Below, piece after piece: positions 127 to 13,781 of a stretch of DNA of 64,000 nt. Made by a program: the position numbers and the translations under genes. The DNA is from a phage. The notes under the pieces were generated by a model. It was given only the letters and a program-made list of their open reading frames with translations, was not told where the DNA came from and did no database searches. The stretch lies in NCBI GenBank assembly GCA_020619395.1, contig GCA_020619395.1_4860.1, one strand, 5' to 3'. Positions within the stretch are counted from its first letter, which is position 1. The number at the start of each line of letters is the position of its first letter.

Positions 127-167
127 CAAAAAAAGAAAGGGTAAATCCCCCACCGAAGTGGGGGATT
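127..167 (-). terminator. rho-independent terminator after CDS 179..1438
   Basis: Seen in sequence: hairpin 145-166 (atcccccac / cgaa / gtgggggat) with an A-run on the + strand at 127-136, which is a U-run after the hairpin on the - strand. Confidence 0.6.
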
Positions 168-178
168 CGCCAGTCTAA

Positions 179-1438
179 TTACTTAGACTTTTCATACGCA
201 CCGATACCGGCGCTGATGTAGCCGTTAACGCCGGCGATCAGGTTTTTCTGGCCGGTTGCAACGCAACGTTCGGTCCAGGAGATGTACTGGTTCGCAACGG
301 TGATTGCACGACGTGCAACACGGACGTTGGAAGTCAGTTCAGCGTTGTCGTCGATCTTCACGCCGTCGATACGTTTCAGCAGCGCCTCAATAGCCCGCTC
401 GTACGATTCTTGAGCCTGGTTATTTTTGTGGTACGCTTTCACGTTCTCTTCGACTGCTTTACCCAGCTGGTTGAAGAACGCAACCAGAGAAGACAGCGTC
501 TGAGCAGACGGAGTAGAAACAGATTTTTCTACGCTGCCTTCAGCATCGATAACGGTGAAGGAAGCTTCCAGGTCATCCCCGTTCACTTTCACGTCAGCTT
601 TACCGATCTGGTTACCCAGCAGTTGAACTTCGCCCGCTTTGCCTGCAGTGGCTTTGTTAACCGCTGCTGCGAAGCCGCTGTTCAGTTTGCCGCCTTCAAC
701 TGAGCTGACCATGCGGGTTGCATCTTTGACCACTGCTTCCTGCTCGCCGTAGATGCTGCCGATAGTAGACAGAACACCTTTCAGTGCATTGATGTCGTCA
801 CCAACAAACTTACCACCGGTGGTCAGGTTCTTAATGAACCCACCGCTAATGGTGTCTTTCTTCTGCTTGCCCAGGCCACGCAGAGCCGCGTCATATTTCT
901 TAGCGCGTGCCTGAATGGATTTACCCTGGTTGCTGAACTTGAGCCAGCGATCTTTGATTTTACGGCCTTGTTCTTTCAGCCAGTCGAAGATACGCTGCAG
1001 GAACGCTTTGATGTCGTCCCACAGTGATTCGCGAGCAACCTGACGGCGTTTACGTGCGCCGTAAGATTCCTGCGCAACGCTTACGCGGTGATCGAATGCC
1101 CAACGCTTACGGATAGATTCCTGCGCAACGTCCAGCTGCTCAGCAGCTTCGTCAGGCATATCTTCTTCCACTTCCATTGGCTCTTCGCCATCTTCGCCTT
1201 CGCCGTCAGCGGCGGCTTCAGCAGCATCAACTGCATCCAGCTGTGCATCAGTTTCGTCACCGTCTTCTGCCAGCACGTCTGCTTCTGCGTCCAGCTGGTC
1301 GATCGGTTTGGTGTCATGCTCGATGTCAGCCAGAGTACCTTCCACGGACTCAGCCGGCAGCTCGATGCCATCTGGAACGACAGTGCCTGCGCCTTCGACA
1401 GATTCACGAGCGAGTTTACTTTTTACAAAGTTAGCCAT
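179..1438 (-). CDS. tandem paralog A; acidic N-terminal region then basic/Gly-rich body; candidate virion internal (protease-processed) protein
   Basis: 419-aa ORF; N-terminus MANFVKSKLARESVE, internal VAQESIRKRWA and LGKQKK-x-x-ISGGFI, and C-terminal G-x-NGYI-x-AGIGAYEKSK are shared with 1516..2793; own terminator. Function is inference. Confidence 0.6.
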   Translation of the reverse strand: MANFVKSKLARESVEGAGTVVPDGIELPAESVEGTLADIEHDTKPIDQLDAEADVLAEDGDETDAQLDAVDAAEAAADGEGEDGEEPMEVEEDMPDEAAEQLDVAQESIRKRWAFDHRVSVAQESYGARKRRQVARESLWDDIKAFLQRIFDWLKEQGRKIKDRWLKFSNQGKSIQARAKKYDAALRGLGKQKKDTISGGFIKNLTTGGKFVGDDINALKGVLSTIGSIYGEQEAVVKDATRMVSSVEGGKLNSGFAAAVNKATAGKAGEVQLLGNQIGKADVKVNGDDLEASFTVIDAEGSVEKSVSTPSAQTLSSLVAFFNQLGKAVEENVKAYHKNNQAQESYERAIEALLKRIDGVKIDDNAELTSNVRVARRAITVANQYISWTERCVATGQKNLIAGVNGYISAGIGAYEKSK

Positions 1439-1515
1439 CTTTTTCTATCCTCTAGGCGGTACGCCGTGTACCGCCATTAATGATTTGTCAACTGACGTTC
1501 AGTACGTAAAGCGGA

Positions 1516-2793
1516 TTAAGCTTTAGACTTTTCGTACGCGCCAATACCAGCGCCGATGTAGCCGTTCAGGCCGCTAATAACAGTGTTACCAACGTGAGCC
1601 ACAGCACGGTTCAGAGTCTGGTAGTTACGCACAGCCTGGTCAGCTGCAGTACGTGCATTACGCAGCGCTTCCCACTCACCTTCGTCGTTGGATTTTTTCA
1701 GAGCGGCAGCAGCTTTGGCAGCAGCCTCTTCCAGTTTCTCAACGTCAGCGTCGTAGCTGCGGAAGTCTTGCAGGACTTTCTCGAAACCTTTACCGATAAC
1801 GTCCAGGGCAGACGCAGCAGATGCCAGTGCAGAAATAGCCGGAGTAGCGATTTCTTTCGTTTCAGAAACGTCACCCGTCGACAGGAAGGCCACTGCGGTG
1901 AATTCCTGGCCGCCTGCCAGAGTTTTGCTGCCGGTCTGTACATAGGCGTTGCCTGGCAGTGCCAGAACTTTCTGACCGCCTTCGCCGTCTTCGAATTGCG
2001 GCAGTGCGCGCAGTTTCTTCGCAGCGGTACCAAACAGGGCAACGTCAACAGCGCCTTTAGCAGCGGTTGCGGTACCGTCTGAAGTTTTGGTGATCGCTAC
2101 AGCAGAGTCAGCCGCCTGAGAGGACAGCTTGTTGATGGCATCTTTCGCTTTACCGCCGGTCAGCTCTTTCGCGATAGCGATAGAGTTGGCCACATCGAAT
2201 TCACCTTCGATAGACAGTTTGCTAATAAAGCCACCAGAAATGTTTTCTTTCTTCTGTTTGCCGAGCTTACGCAGCATCTCCTGGTAAGCTTTCGCACGTT
2301 TCTGCGCGGACTTACCAACGTTGATGTACTTCAGTTTCAGCTCTTTCGCTTTCGCGATAACTGCTTTACACAGTTCAACGAAGCGTTCGAACAGATCTTT
2401 CAGGGTTTCTTTCCAGCCTTCCTGAGCTGCTTTGGTCATGCCACGGCCACGGCGATAAGATTCGCGCGCCAGTTTGGTACGATCGATAGCCCAACGTTTA
2501 CGGATAGATTCCTGCGCCACTTCGGTGTGAGCGATGGCTTCTTCAGGCATCTCTTCACCGTTTTCGATTTTTTCGTCAGCAGCGTCGATAGCAGCTTCGG
2601 TACGCTCGGTATCAGCAGCCAGAGTTTCCTGGTCGCCATCGAGCTGTTCCAGCTGACCGTCGATAGACGCAACTTCTGCCAGCTGGACGTCGATGTTCTC
2701 TTCTGCCGGTTCAACGTTGCTCAGACCGTCGATTACGTCGCCGGTAGCTTCAACGGACTCGCGGGCGAGTTTACTTTTTACAAAGTTTGCCAT
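1516..2793 (-). CDS. tandem paralog B of 179..1438; candidate virion internal protein
   Basis: 425-aa ORF with the same conserved N-terminal 15 residues, central blocks and C-terminal GAYEKSK motif as paralog A. Confidence 0.6.
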   Translation of the reverse strand: MANFVKSKLARESVEATGDVIDGLSNVEPAEENIDVQLAEVASIDGQLEQLDGDQETLAADTERTEAAIDAADEKIENGEEMPEEAIAHTEVAQESIRKRWAIDRTKLARESYRRGRGMTKAAQEGWKETLKDLFERFVELCKAVIAKAKELKLKYINVGKSAQKRAKAYQEMLRKLGKQKKENISGGFISKLSIEGEFDVANSIAIAKELTGGKAKDAINKLSSQAADSAVAITKTSDGTATAAKGAVDVALFGTAAKKLRALPQFEDGEGGQKVLALPGNAYVQTGSKTLAGGQEFTAVAFLSTGDVSETKEIATPAISALASAASALDVIGKGFEKVLQDFRSYDADVEKLEEAAAKAAAALKKSNDEGEWEALRNARTAADQAVRNYQTLNRAVAHVGNTVISGLNGYIGAGIGAYEKSKA

Positions 2794-4373: not shown

Positions 4374-5492
4374 TTACAGTACCGGATTCGCGCCGACGCG
4401 ATAGGCATCGATGATTTTGTTTACATCGCCGCTACCGGACTTCGCCTTGCTAAAGTCTGATTTGTCGAGTTCTTGAGACCCGGTCTGACCACGCGTATAA
4501 ATGGTTACACGGTTCCAGGTCTGGTCGACAACCACGTAGTAAACAGTCAGGGTGTCTTTGAACACACGCTGGCGGATATTGTAATCATCGAAGTCACCGC
4601 CCAGCTGAGCAGTCAGATCGTCGATAGTTTCTTGAGAAACCACCATAACCGAAGACGCGTTGTTGATGGATGGGCTCAGCGTCAGCAGGCCAGACAGCCA
4701 GTTGGCGTTTTTCTTTTCCATCATCTTACGGTAATAACCGGACTTATCACGGAAGCGGTTCTTACGGTATTCTTCAATGAGGTCATTACACAGCGCGATA
4801 TCTTTCGCGTAGCTGAGAGAACCGACCTTCGCACGCAGCACACGTTCCCAGAAGGTTTTGGTTTGATCGCTGAACGCAATGAGCGTTTTCATTTCGTCGG
4901 TCGGCAGAGACTTCACATCAAGACGCAGACGCATCGGCAGCTCGACTTTATTACCGTCACGTTCGAAGGTAACAGAGAACACTTTACCGTTGGACAGACC
5001 TTCTTGATCATGCAGGAGCTTCAGCGTGTTGTTCGGCAGCACAGAACCTGCGGACGATTCAGTCGCTACTTTGTTATCGGATTTCTGGCGACGGGATTCA
5101 CCGACCGCAAGCCCGATTTTATCGTATGACGGCAGCGTGTGACGGGAGGACTCGCCGATTGCGAAAGACGCTAAGCGAGAACCCGAACGTGCAGCCGCAT
5201 CGAGGGCATTACGACGGGTGCTAACCTGGTCAAGCGTACCAAGGATATCAACCTCAGGAACACCCACCAGAATTGAGATGGCGGTAAGTTGGTTGCCCGC
5301 GAGCAGGATTTGGATTTTCTCCAGAATACCTGGCAGGTAATCTAAGCCCAACAGACTTTGTTCAACCAGCGTGGTGTGCTCGTTGTACAGCACAGAGTTG
5401 AATTCTTCCGTCGATTCCGCCCGCTGGCGAAGCAGCATGGGAAACTTAGAAAGAAAGGAGACGAGCGATGTCTCAAATGTTTTTTCTGCCAT
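4374..5492 (-). CDS. hypothetical protein
   Basis: 372-aa ORF; divergent from the + strand gene at 5515 with only a 22-bp gap. Confidence 0.6.
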   Translation of the reverse strand: MAEKTFETSLVSFLSKFPMLLRQRAESTEEFNSVLYNEHTTLVEQSLLGLDYLPGILEKIQILLAGNQLTAISILVGVPEVDILGTLDQVSTRRNALDAAARSGSRLASFAIGESSRHTLPSYDKIGLAVGESRRQKSDNKVATESSAGSVLPNNTLKLLHDQEGLSNGKVFSVTFERDGNKVELPMRLRLDVKSLPTDEMKTLIAFSDQTKTFWERVLRAKVGSLSYAKDIALCNDLIEEYRKNRFRDKSGYYRKMMEKKNANWLSGLLTLSPSINNASSVMVVSQETIDDLTAQLGGDFDDYNIRQRVFKDTLTVYYVVVDQTWNRVTIYTRGQTGSQELDKSDFSKAKSGSGDVNKIIDAYRVGANPVL

Positions 5493-9737: not shown

Positions 9738-9782
9738 AAAGCACTACCCTCTCCCGAAGGAGAGGGTAGCCTTTTATTTTAT
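9727..9782. terminator. bidirectional rho-independent terminator
   Basis: Hairpin 9744-9769 (ctaccctctcc / cgaa / ggagagggtag) with A-run 9727-9740 before and T-run 9771-9780 after; sits between convergent genes. Confidence 0.65.
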
Positions 9783-11512
9783 TCGCCGTCAAGCATGTTT
9801 TTGCGATTATTACCTTTCACCAACGGGTTACGTTTGGCCAGGTTCAGTATCGTCTGCAGTGTAGCGGCAGCACCGCAACAACGACGCACCAACGACAGGT
9901 TACGACGCAAGCCGACGAAGAGGTCTTCATCACCGTCTGGGGAGAATAACACCATCGAGAGTTCACGACCGTCGGTGCGCAGACCAGAAGGTTGATTAAG
10001 CTCGTTCATAATGACTTCGCTAATCAGGTTAACGTATTCAGCGTTATCCTTGGTTGCTTTCTGGAACTGCTCCAACACTTTAATCGTGTTATTAACCGCC
10101 TTATCCAGTGCACTGTAACGGTTCAGGTTAGTCGCGGCGGTGTCGTTGGTAAAACCTTGTTTACCTAGCGTTACCACCACGGCCAGCAGCTCACGTTCGT
10201 CACCAACCGATAACGTGCCCGCTTGGCGCATTTGCTCTAAGCACTCGCGTCCCAAGAACGCCGATGCTTGTGCATTAACCAACACTTTACCAGGCACGAA
10301 GTCCACACCATCGTCATGACCCACTAAACCACGAACTTTGTTTTCTGGGATAACGACCAAAGGTGCAGTAGCGTATTCGAATCCTTTGCGGGAAACGTCG
10401 CTGATGATGAAGTTCATCGTGGTGTTCAGCTGCGCTAACGCCTGACCGAAAATAAGCGCGGTGTCGTGTGCTGCTTTGTTAACTTGCTTACCGTTGTGCG
10501 TGGTGGTTGAACCTTGCTGATTCTTAAAACCTTCGGCGACGCTTGGGTCAATCATCGCTTTAAAGGCACTCTGGAGCGAGCCAAAGTAACCGATAAGTTC
10601 GCTGGCAACATTCGACATCTGTTGGAAGTTCAACAGGTTCGGAATACGCACACCGGCTTCACGCGCAGACTTCGGCAATGCCTGCCAGGCTTTCTTACCC
10701 ACCTCAATCGGATAGATACCGTAAGTTACGTTGTGTTGTAACAGGGTATCTAACAGGTCGTGAATAACCTGCTGGCTCGATTGGCGTTTCTTAGTGTAAC
10801 CTTTGAACAATTCAGTGAACGGCGAACGACCCAGCGCGCTGCTCAAGTCATTCAGATACTCTTCCGCGTTCATGTTCGTAAACACTTCGTCGGCCATCGC
10901 GATAGCCAAGTTCAGGTTTTCCAGGTCACGACCTTTCAGACCCTTAGAGGCTTCGATGTATGCATCTTTCACTGCGCTGATTTTCAGCTGACCGATGATA
11001 GTGTTTTCGGTCTGGGAGAAACTCTCTGCTTTTTCGCCGACTTTCTCAGCGTAACCTTCGCCGTCGAATTCGCCATTACCAGCAAACCCGTTACCGTTGC
11101 TGATAATCCAACCGATGATTTTGATAATCGCGGTCATGATTAACACAACCAATCCCACTTTACCTGCATTTGCCCAGGATTCGAGCGCAACAATAGTCTC
11201 TTTCTGGTGCGTGCGGGTATAGTTAGAGGTCAGGATTTTGCGGACAGCTTCGGGAATTGTGCCTGGGCGAGAAGATTCAACAGCGACAGCGACATCTTTC
11301 GATAGGCCAGCGCGTCGCACCTCATCAAGAATCGCGTCGATTTGCAGAATCAGTCGAGAGCCGTAGATTAAGTCGGCTTCGTTGCGTTGCATGTACAGAT
11401 TGAGCTGGTTGACAGAATCAATACGCTCGGCCATACGTGAACGCAGGACTTCACCGATCTCCCCCAAACGCCATTTGGGGTGGGTGGCGTTACCTGTCAT
11501 TTCCATGCTCAT
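9779..11512 (-). CDS. hypothetical protein with one predicted transmembrane segment
   Basis: 577-aa ORF; hydrophobic stretch KVGLVVLIMTAIIKIIGWII; no enzymatic motif seen. Confidence 0.6.
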   Translation of the reverse strand: MSMEMTGNATHPKWRLGEIGEVLRSRMAERIDSVNQLNLYMQRNEADLIYGSRLILQIDAILDEVRRAGLSKDVAVAVESSRPGTIPEAVRKILTSNYTRTHQKETIVALESWANAGKVGLVVLIMTAIIKIIGWIISNGNGFAGNGEFDGEGYAEKVGEKAESFSQTENTIIGQLKISAVKDAYIEASKGLKGRDLENLNLAIAMADEVFTNMNAEEYLNDLSSALGRSPFTELFKGYTKKRQSSQQVIHDLLDTLLQHNVTYGIYPIEVGKKAWQALPKSAREAGVRIPNLLNFQQMSNVASELIGYFGSLQSAFKAMIDPSVAEGFKNQQGSTTTHNGKQVNKAAHDTALIFGQALAQLNTTMNFIISDVSRKGFEYATAPLVVIPENKVRGLVGHDDGVDFVPGKVLVNAQASAFLGRECLEQMRQAGTLSVGDERELLAVVVTLGKQGFTNDTAATNLNRYSALDKAVNNTIKVLEQFQKATKDNAEYVNLISEVIMNELNQPSGLRTDGRELSMVLFSPDGDEDLFVGLRRNLSLVRRCCGAAATLQTILNLAKRNPLVKGNNRKNMLDGE

Positions 11513-12431: not shown

Positions 12432-13781
12432 CTACGACTTTACCGTGGCGAGCTTCGCAGAAGCCACACGCAGGTCATTAGAAAGATAACGCTCCATCGT
12501 ACGCTGATAATCCACACCAGCGCGCTCACGGCGACCGCCAGGGGTCAGCGTTTTCATGATGAAGCTAAAGACGTTGTCTTTGTCTTTCACGGTTTTCAGT
12601 AATTCGTCGATAGACGCAATGCCCTGCAGAATACGTTTACGATGTTCGTTCGCTTCTTTCGTGGTGCTACCTTTTAAGGTGTTCAGCTCTTCCACTAAGT
12701 TACGACGCATCGTCTCAAAACGTTCCTGCGGCGGATCGTAGATGGTGTTGCGTGGGTCGTTCACAATCAGACCGAACGCCACCGAGATAGTCGTGAAGAA
12801 CAGGCCAACTGGATTAGTCGAAGCCACAATCAGCAGCGAAACGTTAAGCATTTCCAGCATCAGATGCACACCGTAGTTCATGTACGACGCGTTCCGGCAG
12901 AGATAGAATTGGGACGTTTCGATTTTGTACAGGGCTGACGCCAGGTACGGGGCTGCACCAAAACGAGCTGCGAAGTCATCTGCAGCACGTTCCCAGGTAC
13001 GGTTAGCGAACCCTTCCGAACCGGTAACAAACGGACGCTCAAGCAGAATGTCCGTCACCAGATGCATGTAGATGTTCTCTTTAGACATCTCTTTGCAGAT
13101 AGTTTCCGGCTGATTCACTTTGGTGTTCAGCATACGTTCAACGTCTTTTACGACTTTCAAACGCACTGTCGGGTCTTCGGTTTGCATCATGCGGTTCGCT
13201 GCAGCATCCGCAATCAGGTTCGTTACCACCGTACGCATCAAGGTACGGAAATAGTAATAGACGTGGCCGACTTCATGTAGAATAATCGCCGCGACTTCTA
13301 AATCCGTTAAGTCGATACTGGTCAGTAGTTTCGGGGTCAGCCAAAGTGGGGACGGCACCTTGCTGAGTTCGCCTGAAAGCTTCGCATTTTTATCGTCGAA
13401 CTCGCCGTTCAGTTCGTTCTCTTTTAAGAACTTACTGTAGACATCCAGGTCGGTGTTACCCTGCACCATTTTGCGTTGCAGGTCGGCGATAATTGGGTTG
13501 TTCGCGTCGAGCTTCGGTGGCTCCACACCCGCAAACACAACGTCCGCCACACCTAAGTCGGACCCGTTACGAGGCAGGACTGTAATACCGTTGTTGTCAA
13601 AGACCCAGGCAGCAATACCAGAACTCTGATAACCCGCTGGCGAGAAATCGCCCGCATCACGGAACTTACGTACCACTTCCGCCAAAGAGGCGAGTTTCTT
13701 TTTATCTTGGAATCCGATGGACTCCGAGGCCACGGCTTTCGCGTCGGCCAACGAGGTTATGTGCTTTTGCCAGTGTCCCAT
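12432..13781 (-). CDS. M48-type zinc metallopeptidase-like membrane protein
   Basis: 449-aa ORF with HEVGH (HExxH) and downstream ERAADDFAARFG (E-x-x-AD-x-FA, the third zinc ligand pattern of M48/HtpX/Ste24-type peptidases, recalled), plus hydrophobic helices such as VSLLIVASTNPVGLFFTTISVAFGLIV. Confidence 0.5.
   Translation of the reverse strand: MGHWQKHITSLADAKAVASESIGFQDKKKLASLAEVVRKFRDAGDFSPAGYQSSGIAAWVFDNNGITVLPRNGSDLGVADVVFAGVEPPKLDANNPIIADLQRKMVQGNTDLDVYSKFLKENELNGEFDDKNAKLSGELSKVPSPLWLTPKLLTSIDLTDLEVAAIILHEVGHVYYYFRTLMRTVVTNLIADAAANRMMQTEDPTVRLKVVKDVERMLNTKVNQPETICKEMSKENIYMHLVTDILLERPFVTGSEGFANRTWERAADDFAARFGAAPYLASALYKIETSQFYLCRNASYMNYGVHLMLEMLNVSLLIVASTNPVGLFFTTISVAFGLIVNDPRNTIYDPPQERFETMRRNLVEELNTLKGSTTKEANEHRKRILQGIASIDELLKTVKDKDNVFSFIMKTLTPGGRRERAGVDYQRTMERYLSNDLRVASAKLATVKS

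What the first reader, a model, noticed from the sequence alone, without database searches (positions are those of the whole stretch)
179..2793. Tandem paralogs with identical 15-aa N-terminus and candidate protease-processing sites
Both proteins start MANFVKSKLARESVE, have a strongly acidic region (D/E-rich, about residues 40-100) followed by a basic region, and share a C-terminal AGIGAYEKSK motif. The conserved N-terminus contains A-R-E and S-V-E. The S/A/G-x-E pattern is the prohead-protease cleavage motif I recall for phiKZ head/inner-body proteins, so a propeptide that targets them into the capsid and is then removed is plausible.
Basis: partly seen in the sequence, partly recalled or inferred. 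Interest (0 to 1): 0.45.

Follow-up and report, generated by a model that had tools for sequence, protein, structure and literature searches.

The report
Known cleaved internal head protein pair

Summary
Window 1516-2793(-) and 179-1438(-) encode 425- and 419-aa paralogs. They are 34% identical overall, share the first 15 residues (MANFVKSKLARESVE), have an acidic then a basic segment, and end in AGIGAYEKSK. The window is a SPN3US-like Salmonella jumbo phage at 99-99.5% nucleotide identity. The proteins are SPN3US gp53 (100% identical) and gp54 (7 substitutions), both in Pfam PF12699.

The finding is already published. Ali et al. 2017 describe this same 15-residue identity with AXE-12 and SXE-15. 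The 2023 SPN3US mass-spectrometry paper reports cleavage by prohead protease gp245 at ARE-12, AQE-95 and AQE-125 in gp53, and at AQE-124 and ARE-137 in gp54.

Three things are added here:
- Four A-x-E|S/G cassettes are conserved in both paralogs of 13 phages. S-x-E-15 is not conserved in more distant homologs.
- The N-terminal peptide evolves in concert between the paralogs of each genome, despite synonymous divergence.
- phiKZ gp92-95 carry an equivalent 11-13-residue leader.

The "propeptide is removed" reading needs refining. In phiKZ, the homologous N-terminal fragments stay bound to the capsid inner surface. A capsid-targeting role for the 12-mer is still untested.

Novelty: already known. 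Interest: low.

The parts
1516..2793 (-). Gene for the 425-aa internal head / ejection protein, identical to SPN3US gp53 (PF12699)
   Evidence: ORF. 100% aa identity to SPN3US YP_009153347. PF12699 at 254 bits. phrog_2497 internal head protein.
179..1438 (-). Gene for the 419-aa paralog, SPN3US gp54 with 7 substitutions (PF12699)
   Evidence: ORF. 412 of 419 residues identical to SPN3US YP_009153348. PF12699 at 194 bits. 34% identity to the gp53-like protein.
2758..2793 (-). gp53-like residues 1-12, MANFVKSKLARE: basic leader peptide ending at the ARE-12 cleavage site
   Evidence: Coordinates checked. N3, F4, A10, R11, E12 and S13 are invariant in 26 proteins. ARE-12 cleavage of gp53 is reported by MS (PMC10052503).
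1403..1438 (-). gp54-like residues 1-12, identical leader peptide. Cleavage at ARE-12 is predicted here but not yet reported for gp54
   Evidence: Table 2 of PMC10052503 lists only AQE-124 and ARE-137 for gp54.
2509..2757 (-). gp53-like residues 13-95: acidic segment (net -24) bounded by ARE-12 and AQE-95
   Evidence: VAQE|SIRKRW is conserved in all 26 aligned proteins. AQE-95 cleavage is reported.
2419..2508 (-). gp53-like residues 96-125: basic linker (net +7) holding the conserved KLARE|SY (E111) site and the maturation site AAQE|GWK (E125)
   Evidence: AQE-125 is the reported maturation site. E111 is conserved but unreported for gp53.
1519..2418 (-). gp53-like mature protein, residues 126-425 (31.5 kDa, pI 9.2): long helix bundle plus a small beta domain
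   Evidence: AF2 model has pLDDT 82 and pTM 0.80. The fold recurs in jumbo-phage internal head proteins.
1118..1402 (-). gp54-like residues 13-107: acidic segment (net -34) ending at VAQE|SIRKRW (E107)
1028..1117 (-). gp54-like residues 108-137: basic linker (net +6) with AQE-124 and the maturation site VARE|SLW (E137)
   Evidence: Both sites are reported by MS.
182..1027 (-). gp54-like mature protein, residues 138-419 (30.4 kDa, pI 9.4)
   Evidence: [quoted passage not shown]
1522..1551 (-). gp53-like C-terminal motif AGIGAYEKSK, part of the family-wide glycine-rich G-x-x-G-Y-I-G-A-G-I-G-A-Y end
   Evidence: The E of A-Y-E is not conserved in orthologs, so it is not a conserved cleavage site.
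182..211 (-). gp54-like C-terminal motif AGIGAYEKSK
143..168 (-). Intrinsic-terminator-like hairpin (11-bp stem, T-rich tail) 11 nt after the gp54-like stop codon. It probably ends the gp53-gp54 transcript
   Evidence: (-23.3 kcal/mol for the 58-nt stretch that contains it).

Best explanation
What the genes are. They encode the two high-copy internal head (ejection) proteins of an SPN3US-type jumbo phage, SPN3US gp53 and gp54. These are tandem paralogs of the phiKZ internal-head-protein family, PF12699.

Domain layout. Each is made as a 45-kDa precursor with four parts:
1. A conserved basic 12-residue leader, M-A-N-F-x-x-x-K/R-x-A-R-E.
2. An acidic segment of 83-95 residues.
3. A 30-residue basic linker.
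4. A basic helix-bundle body of about 31 kDa.

Assembly and processing. The precursors enter the prohead, where in SPN3US they form a T=1 inner shell under the T=27 capsid. Prohead protease gp245 then cuts after A-x-E at four conserved cassettes: E12; E95 (gp53) or E107 (gp54); E111 or E124; and E125 or E137. This frees the basic body, which stays in the DNA-filled head and is ejected into the cell.

Shown versus inferred. In SPN3US the identity, virion location, copy number and five of the cleavage sites are shown by experiment. Three points are inferred here or by analogy:
- The 12-mer leader is a shared docking or targeting signal read by one common partner. This would explain why it is the only part that shows no paralog-specific divergence and why it changes in step in both paralogs.
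- The unreported sites (E111 of gp53; E12 and E107 of gp54) are also cut.
- Part of the acidic segment stays on the capsid inner surface, as phiKZ gp93 residues 14-84 do, rather than leaving the head.
For: Identity:
- The window is 99.0-99.5% identical to SPN3US-like phages.
- The proteins are 100% and 98.3% identical to the SPN3US internal head proteins.
- Both match PF12699 well above the cut-off and the PHROG family 'internal head protein'.

Published biology of SPN3US gp53 and gp54:
- More than 600 copies each per virion, and the same 15-residue identity noted (PMC5694885).
- Cleavage sites ARE-12, AQE-95 and AQE-125 (gp53) and AQE-124 and ARE-137 (gp54); recombinant gp245 cuts gp53 in vitro (PMC10052503).
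- Propeptides stay intact in protease mutants (PMC7411985).
- The T=1 inner shell is made mainly of gp53 and gp54 (PMC7552025).
- gp243 is needed for their incorporation.

New here:
- The tandem pair is present in 62 of 64 phage records with a tblastn match (two matching places each; the two Phobos records carry the pair as one joined place), across at least five genera (Seoulvirus, Erskinevirus, Machinavirus, Wellingtonvirus, Derbicusvirus).
- All four A-x-E|S/G cassettes align in both paralogs of 13 phages and are enriched about tenfold over shuffles in the propeptides only.
- A10, R11, E12 and S13 are invariant.
- In the N-terminal 15 columns, same-genome paralogs are 0.86 identical, against 0.69 for cross-genome paralogs and 0.70 for orthologs. 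In the rest of the protein the figures are 0.27 for paralogs and 0.54-0.63 for orthologs. None of 20000 permutations reached the observed value.
- Synonymous divergence in the leader (6 of 14 codons) equals that in the rest of the gene (0.43).
- phiKZ gp92-95 have equivalent leaders ending in L-E at residue 11-13, for example gp93 MSLLKMLDKLSLE|SIE.
Against: - No experiment has tested whether the 12-mer targets anything. Its conservation could equally reflect protease recognition or folding.
- Codons 3-9 are identical at nucleotide level in the window and in several relatives. Short-tract gene conversion or selection on the translation-initiation region could therefore produce part of the within-genome concordance.
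- The permutation test ignores phylogenetic relatedness of the genomes.
- Cleavage at E12 was seen only for gp53, and only in some experiments.
- Retention of the acidic fragment on the capsid is shown only for phiKZ. No sequence similarity between the phiKZ and SPN3US fragments was detected beyond the leader (one search found no PDB match).
Confidence: 0.9

Rival explanations
1. The identical N-terminus is a by-product of recent gene conversion between adjacent paralogs and has no function of its own.
For: - The genes are tandem, 77 nt apart.
- Codons 3-9 (23 nt) are identical at nucleotide level in the window, and similar identical runs occur in Caitlin, pEa_SNUABM_4 and SPAsTU.
- The variable residues 5-9 change together in both paralogs of a genome.
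Against: - Six of the 15 codons differ synonymously, the same rate as the rest of the gene (0.43).
- The upstream DNA is unrelated.
- N3, F4, A10, R11, E12 and S13 are invariant in orthologs from at least five genera, with synonymous sites scrambled. This requires long-term purifying selection on the peptide.
- phiKZ paralogs have an equivalent leader.
- At most, a micro-conversion of about 25 nt explains the covariation of residues 5-9. It does not explain the conservation.
Confidence: 0.1
2. The conserved 5' end is constrained at the RNA level (translation initiation of two very highly expressed late genes), not as a peptide.
For: - Both proteins are among the three most abundant head proteins.
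- Codons 2-9 are A/T-rich and are nearly the same codons in paralogs and in many orthologs.
Against: - The most conserved residues (A-R-E-S, codons 10-13) vary freely at synonymous positions: GCT/GCC, CGT/CGC, GAA/GAG, TCT/TCC/TCA/TCG/AGC. Selection there acts on the protein.
- The site is an experimentally observed protease cut.
- The Shine-Dalgarno regions and upstream sequences differ.
Confidence: 0.1
3. The long N-terminal region is not a disposable propeptide. It is a second functional product. After the 12-mer is removed, the acidic fragment (13-95 or 13-107) stays bound to the inner capsid surface as cement between capsomers, as shown for phiKZ gp93 and gp162. Cleavage therefore splits one gene product into a capsid-lining piece and an ejection or inner-body piece.
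For: - In the phiKZ cryo-EM capsid, gp93 residues 14-84 and gp162 residues 18-137 are ordered on the inner surface and start exactly at the cleavage sites (PMC11297242).
- phiKZ gp93 and the window proteins share the family (PF12699) and the leader architecture KLSLE|SIE versus KLARE|SVE.
- SPN3US MS found unusually many PSMs from the gp53 propeptide in purified heads, including the semi-tryptic peptide that defines the ARE-12 cut.
Against: - The SPN3US authors read the residual peptides as incomplete cleavage or clearance.
- For gp54, no propeptide retention was highlighted.
- With more than 600 copies of each protein, only a fraction of the fragments could occupy capsid sites.
- The isolated AF2 model predicts residues 34-100 as helices rather than extended arms.
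- No SPN3US capsid map with these densities assigned was found.
Confidence: 0.35

Closest known systems
Salmonella phage SPN3US gp53 and gp54 (paralog family A; high-abundance ejection proteins)
   Same: The gp53-like protein is identical and the gp54-like protein has 7 substitutions. Gene order, the 15-residue N-terminus, all A-x-E sites and the C-terminal motif are the same.
   Different: Nothing substantive. All seven gp54 substitutions lie in the mature part (residues 197-268) and touch no cleavage site.
phiKZ internal head / inner body proteins gp92-gp95, gp162, gp163 (Pfam PF12699, phiKZ_IP)
   Same: - Same Pfam family and same predicted fold class.
- Tandem paralogs.
- A short N-terminal leader ending in x-L-E at residue 11-13, followed by Ser, Gly or Asp.
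- Multi-site processing by the homologous S80 prohead protease.
   Different: - phiKZ has five PF12699 paralogs according to PMC5694885 (gps 93, 94, 95, 162, 163), and the phiKZ capsid paper lists eight proteins with similar folds. Their leaders are similar but not identical.
- The phiKZ protease motif is broader (S/A/G-x-E according to the literature quoted), whereas SPN3US uses A-x-E.
- phiKZ builds a cylindrical inner body. SPN3US shows a T=1 inner shell in mottled capsids and much higher copy numbers.
- No direct BLAST-level similarity was found.
T4 capsid targeting sequences (CTS) of internal proteins IPI-III and Alt
   Same: A short N-terminal peptide conserved among several internal or ejection proteins of one phage, ending at a Glu-specific prohead-protease site and removed during maturation (as described in PMC7411985 and PMC5694885).
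   Different: - The T4 CTS of 10-20 residues is the whole propeptide. Here the 12-mer is only the first piece of a propeptide of 125 or 137 residues.
- Sufficiency for targeting is shown for T4 and untested here.
- No sequence homology was established.

Membership tests
Pfam PF12699 phiKZ-like internal head proteins / SPN3US paralog family A | Significant match to the family HMM over most of its length | tested here: met
   PF12699 at 254.1 and 194.5 bits (cut-off 27), covering profile positions 2-387 of 387. phrog_2497 'internal head protein' at E = 7.5e-150 and 8.9e-141.
Pfam PF12699 phiKZ-like internal head proteins / SPN3US paralog family A | Orthology with SPN3US gp53 and gp54 (sequence identity and synteny) | tested here: met
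   100% and 98.3% aa identity, with the same neighbours. The tandem pair sits next to the same flanking genes in 12 related phages.
Pfam PF12699 phiKZ-like internal head proteins / SPN3US paralog family A | Located inside the capsid of purified virions | not testable with these tools
   Shown for SPN3US by MS, SDS-PAGE and cryo-EM (PMC5694885, PMC7552025). Inferred for this near-identical phage.
Substrates of the giant-phage prohead protease (MEROPS S80; SPN3US gp245) | A-x-E motifs at the positions cleaved in SPN3US | tested here: met
   All of E12, E95, E125 (gp53) and E124, E137 (gp54) are present with identical context. The motifs are enriched in the propeptides and conserved in 13 phages.
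Substrates of the giant-phage prohead protease (MEROPS S80; SPN3US gp245) | Actual cleavage in vivo or in vitro | not testable with these tools
   Reported for SPN3US (semi-tryptic and chymotryptic peptides; recombinant gp245 cuts gp53) in PMC10052503 and PMC7411985.
Substrates of the giant-phage prohead protease (MEROPS S80; SPN3US gp245) | Cognate protease encoded by the same genome | not tested
   I did not look for the gp245 homolog in the window. Its presence is expected from 99% genome identity to SPN3US.
T4-type capsid targeting sequence (CTS) | Short N-terminal peptide shared by several internal proteins and ending at a prohead-protease site | tested here: met
   The identical 12-mer ends in A-R-E|S in both paralogs. 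It is conserved in orthologs, and analogous leaders occur in phiKZ gp92-95.
T4-type capsid targeting sequence (CTS) | Necessary and sufficient to direct a protein into the prohead | not testable with these tools
   No experiment was found in the literature searched. The SPN3US authors present it as a hypothesis.
T4-type capsid targeting sequence (CTS) | The CTS constitutes the entire propeptide (10-20 residues) | tested here: not met
   The maturation sites are at E125 and E137. The 12-mer is only the first fragment of a long multi-cut propeptide.
phiKZ gp93/gp162-type capsid-lining N-terminal fragments | Fragment starting right after the first cleavage site remains ordered on the inner capsid surface | not testable with these tools
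   Shown for phiKZ. For SPN3US there is only residual propeptide PSMs. AF2 gives residues 14-29 as disordered and 34-100 as helical in isolation.

The most novel reading that the evidence does not exclude
The 12-residue leader is a dedicated docking signal read by one shared receptor in the prohead, for example gp243, the protease or the capsid protein. This would explain why it evolves in concert in both paralogs of each genome while the rest of the proteins diverge independently. After the leader is clipped, the acidic fragment stays as capsid-lining cement, as in phiKZ. Each gene would then yield three products with separate fates. Such a leader could be used to load foreign cargo into jumbo-phage heads.
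Probability: 0.3. Interest if true: 0.4.

Novelty: already known. Interest (0 to 1): 0.12.

Why it matters
gp53 and gp54 make up more than 40 MDa of protein packed with the DNA of a giant phage. How they are recruited, cut and later ejected is central to jumbo-phage head assembly and early infection.

The comparative results here sharpen an open question: is there a T4-like capsid-targeting signal in jumbo phages? They do so in three ways:
- They identify the invariant A-R-E|S core and four conserved cut cassettes.
- They show that the leader changes in step between the paralogs of each genome.
- They link to the phiKZ capsid structure, which suggests that part of the "propeptide" is a retained structural product.

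Tried and rejected
- PDB sequence searches with gp53 alone and with a 39-sequence family profile found nothing meaningful. The best hits were porin at E = 0.29 and SNF7 at E = 0.08.
- Hydropathy shows no transmembrane-grade segment. The maximum 19-residue Kyte-Doolittle score is 1.56 for gp53 and 0.85 for gp54.
- No other ORF in the 64-kb window starts with an M-x-N-F...A-[RQ]-E-S leader.
- I considered recent gene conversion as the sole cause of the identical N-terminus and rejected it because of the six synonymous differences.
- The phiKZ 2012 proteolysis paper (PMC3323674) is not held, so the S/A/G-x-E motif is cited only as quoted by later papers.
Full report
**1. The observation**

The stated interval holds two minus-strand ORFs, 1516..2793 (425 aa) and 179..1438 (419 aa). 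BLASTP between them gives 34% identity over the full length (E = 2e-48), with residues 1-15 (MANFVKSKLARESVE) identical.

At about 36% identity elsewhere, a run of 15 of 15 identical residues has a probability of about 2e-7. The 15 codons differ at six synonymous positions and at no non-synonymous position. The DNA upstream of the two start codons is unrelated.

- Residues 13-95 of the upstream protein have a net charge of -24, and residues 13-107 of the downstream protein have -34.
- The following 30 residues have +7 and +6.
- The remaining bodies have pI 9.2 and 9.4.

Both proteins end in AGIGAYEKSK. Both carry A-R-E (E12) and S-V-E (E15).

**2. What it is**

The first 6 kb of the window is 99.0-99.5% identical to SPN3US-like Salmonella jumbo phages of genus Seoulvirus. 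In the SPN3US RefSeq record the two genes are annotated "internal head protein".

The 425-aa protein is 100% identical to SPN3US gp53. The 419-aa protein differs from gp54 at seven positions, all between residues 197 and 268. Both match Pfam PF12699 (phiKZ_IP) at 254 and 194 bits against a cut-off of 27, and both match PHROG 2497 "internal head protein".

A terminator-like hairpin follows the downstream gene directly at 143-168(-). The pair is therefore probably the end of one transcription unit.

**3. What is already published about this exact pair**

Ali et al. 2017 (PMC5694885) found gp53 and gp54 to be the most abundant virion proteins after the major capsid protein, at more than 600 copies each. 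They defined them as "paralog family A" (PF12699). [quoted passage not shown]

The 2023 mass-spectrometry study (PMC10052503, Table 2) reports cleavage by prohead protease gp245 at these sites:
- gp53: ARE-12, AQE-95 and AQE-125.
- gp54: AQE-124 and ARE-137.

That study also shows recombinant gp245 cutting gp53 in vitro.

Other published points:
- In protease mutants the propeptides stay intact (PMC7411985).
- In "mottled" capsids gp53 and gp54 form a T=1 inner shell (PMC7552025).
- gp243 is required for their incorporation.

No paper was found that tests a targeting role for the N-terminus.

**4. What the comparative analysis adds**

*Distribution.* tblastn found matches in 64 phage records. 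Of these, 62 carry the tandem pair. The other two are Vibrio phages with one partial match each. The 12 fetched loci span five named genera: Seoulvirus, Erskinevirus, Machinavirus, Wellingtonvirus and Derbicusvirus. A search of the 5.8-billion-protein collection gave 72 homologs.

*N-terminus.* Across 26 proteins from 13 phages, N3, F4, A10, R11, E12 and S13 are invariant, and position 8 is K or R in 25 of 26. The S-x-E at position 15 is kept in the close set. It is replaced by ESVG, ESAG, ESAN or ESVA in more distant homologs. The conserved site is therefore A-R/Q-E|S. This fits the SPN3US protease logo (A-x-E with Ser at P1') and the MS evidence for E12 but not E15.

*Four conserved cassettes.* All four align in both paralogs of all 13 phages:

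| Cassette | gp53 position | gp54 position |
|---|---|---|
| A-R-E\|S | E12 | E12 |
| V-A-Q/G-E\|S-I-R-K/R-R-W | E95 | E107 |
| A-R/Q-E\|S/A-Y/F | E111 | E124 |
| E\|G-W-K (gp53) or R-E\|S-L-W (gp54) | E125 | E137 |

A-x-E followed by S or G occurs four times in each propeptide, against 0.34-0.43 expected from shuffles (P < 0.001). It is not enriched in the mature parts. Three conserved sites have not been reported as cleaved and are predictions: E111 of gp53, and E12 and E107 of gp54.

*The N-terminus evolves differently from the rest of the protein*:

| Region | Same-genome paralogs | Paralogs from different genomes | Orthologs |
|---|---|---|---|
| Columns 1-15 | 0.86 | 0.69 | 0.70 (gp53), 0.69 (gp54) |
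| Rest of protein | 0.27 | 0.26 | 0.63 (gp53), 0.54 (gp54) |

None of 20000 re-pairings of genomes reached the observed within-genome value. This test ignores phylogeny. Examples of both paralogs carrying the same leader:
- The window: MANFVKSKLARESVE.
- SPAsTU: MANFAQRKIARES.
- Caitlin: MANFAQRKVARESIEG.
- Wellington: MNFIQQ.
- The CR5 group: MNFMQ.

The leader therefore has no paralog-specific signature and changes in concert.

*Cause of the concordance.* Synonymous divergence in the leader (6 of 14 codons) equals that of the rest of the gene (0.43). Wholesale recent gene conversion is therefore excluded. However, codons 3-9 are identical at nucleotide level in the window and in several relatives, whereas codons 10-14 differ synonymously almost everywhere. 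A micro-conversion tract of about 25 nt, or selection on the initiation region, could contribute to the covariation of residues 5-9. Protein-level co-evolution with a shared partner is the other reading. These data cannot separate them, because each amino-acid change is a single-nucleotide step.

*phiKZ.* The tandem PF12699 genes of phiKZ have equivalent leaders:
- gp93: MSLLKMLDKLSLE|SIE. Compare KLARE|SVE in the window proteins.
- gp94: MNLNKLLDSLE|G.
- gp95: MTFKLNEYLDSLE|D.
- gp92: ...SVLLE|SID.

The short cleavable leader is thus a family-wide feature.

**5. Structure**

An AlphaFold2 model of the gp53-like protein, built from a 39-sequence alignment, has mean pLDDT 82 and pTM 0.80. It shows these elements:
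- A short N-terminal helix (residues 4-14).
- A disordered stretch (residues 14-29).
- Two helices in the acidic segment (residues 34-77 and 84-100).
- A body of four long helices (119-175, 201-238, 320-367, 372-418) plus a small beta domain (about residues 277-316).

Fold searches gave three results:
- Foldseek against the PDB found nothing significant.
- BFVD gave 100 hits at E ≤ 0.001, essentially all jumbo-phage virion or internal head proteins.

The fold is specific to this phage group. It gives no biochemical function for the ejected body.

**6. Mechanism**

*Best explanation (confidence 0.9 for identity and processing; lower for the targeting step).* The precursors enter the prohead and form the inner shell. 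gp245 then cuts the four cassettes. This releases the basic 31-kDa and 30-kDa bodies, which stay with the DNA and are ejected.

- The removed region is 125 or 137 residues and is cut several times.
- The motif used is A-x-E.
- Targeting is untested.
- Removal may be incomplete by design.

On the last point, the phiKZ capsid structure shows that gp93 residues 14-84 and gp162 residues 18-137 begin exactly at the first cleavage site. These fragments remain bound between capsomers on the inner surface, while the helix-rich domains are cut off for the inner body (PMC11297242). In SPN3US, unusually many peptides from the gp53 propeptide persist in purified heads. They include the semi-tryptic peptide that starts after E12. 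This is compatible with the same arrangement but does not prove it.

*Rivals.* Pure gene conversion, an RNA-level constraint, and the retained-cement model are weighed in their own sections of this report.

**7. Verdict**

The feature is real, correctly located and biologically meaningful, but it is already known: the same proteins, the same 15-residue observation and the same cleavage hypothesis were published in 2017 and largely verified by 2023.

The additions here are incremental:
- The invariant A-R-E|S core.
- Four conserved cassettes, three of them with predicted but unreported cuts.
- Concerted evolution of the leader between paralogs.
- The phiKZ leader parallel.
- The link to capsid-lining fragments.

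Interest is low.

Noticed in passing
Proteins P0052-P0058 (Salmonella phages SPFM5/6/9/10/12/14/15/20), hits: These annotated 'hypothetical proteins' consist of gp53 sequence cut into blocks of about 20 aa (60 nt, one sequence-file line) joined in reverse order. P0052 residues 379-398 equal gp53 residues 6-25, 359-378 equal 26-45, and so on. This looks like a database or annotation artefact, not biology.
   Followed up: partly
window 143-168 (-): A strong terminator-like hairpin, GAATCCCCCAC-TTCG-GTGGGGGATTT with a T-rich tail, lies 11 nt after the gp54-like stop codon. The 58-nt stretch containing it folds at -23.3 kcal/mol.
   Followed up: partly
window 1455-1475 (-): A perfect 8-bp GC-rich hairpin, GGCGGTAC-ACGGC-GTACCGCC, sits in the 77-nt spacer between the two paralogs, just upstream of the gp54-like ribosome-binding site and without a T-run. 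It might be an RNA processing or stability element, or a translational coupling element.
   Followed up: no
window 4374-5492 (-) (SPN3US gp50 homolog) and 9779-11512 (-) (gp47 homolog): In the 372-aa gp50-like ORF the only A-x-E is VATE|S at E145, whereas the 2023 paper lists ATE-127. The published mature and propeptide masses (25.6 and 15.8 kDa) fit E145. In the gp47-like ORF the AVE site is at E79 while ALE is at E111, but the paper's table gives AVE-75 and ALE-111. This looks like mixed numbering in the literature. The sites themselves are present.
   Followed up: partly
window 12432-13781 (-) (SPN3US gp45 homolog): A further known gp245 substrate lies in the window, with its short 20-residue propeptide site VASE|SIGF intact at E20.
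   Followed up: partly
gp54-like protein residues 341-347 (window about 398-418, - strand): The mature gp54-like protein contains QAQE|SYE (E344), which closely resembles the cleaved cassette VAQE|SYG at E124. According to published gel and MS data it is not cut. It lies in the region that aligns with a long helix of the gp53 model (gp54 itself was not modelled), so motif context or accessibility may decide cleavage.
   Followed up: no
[not shown]
   Followed up: no
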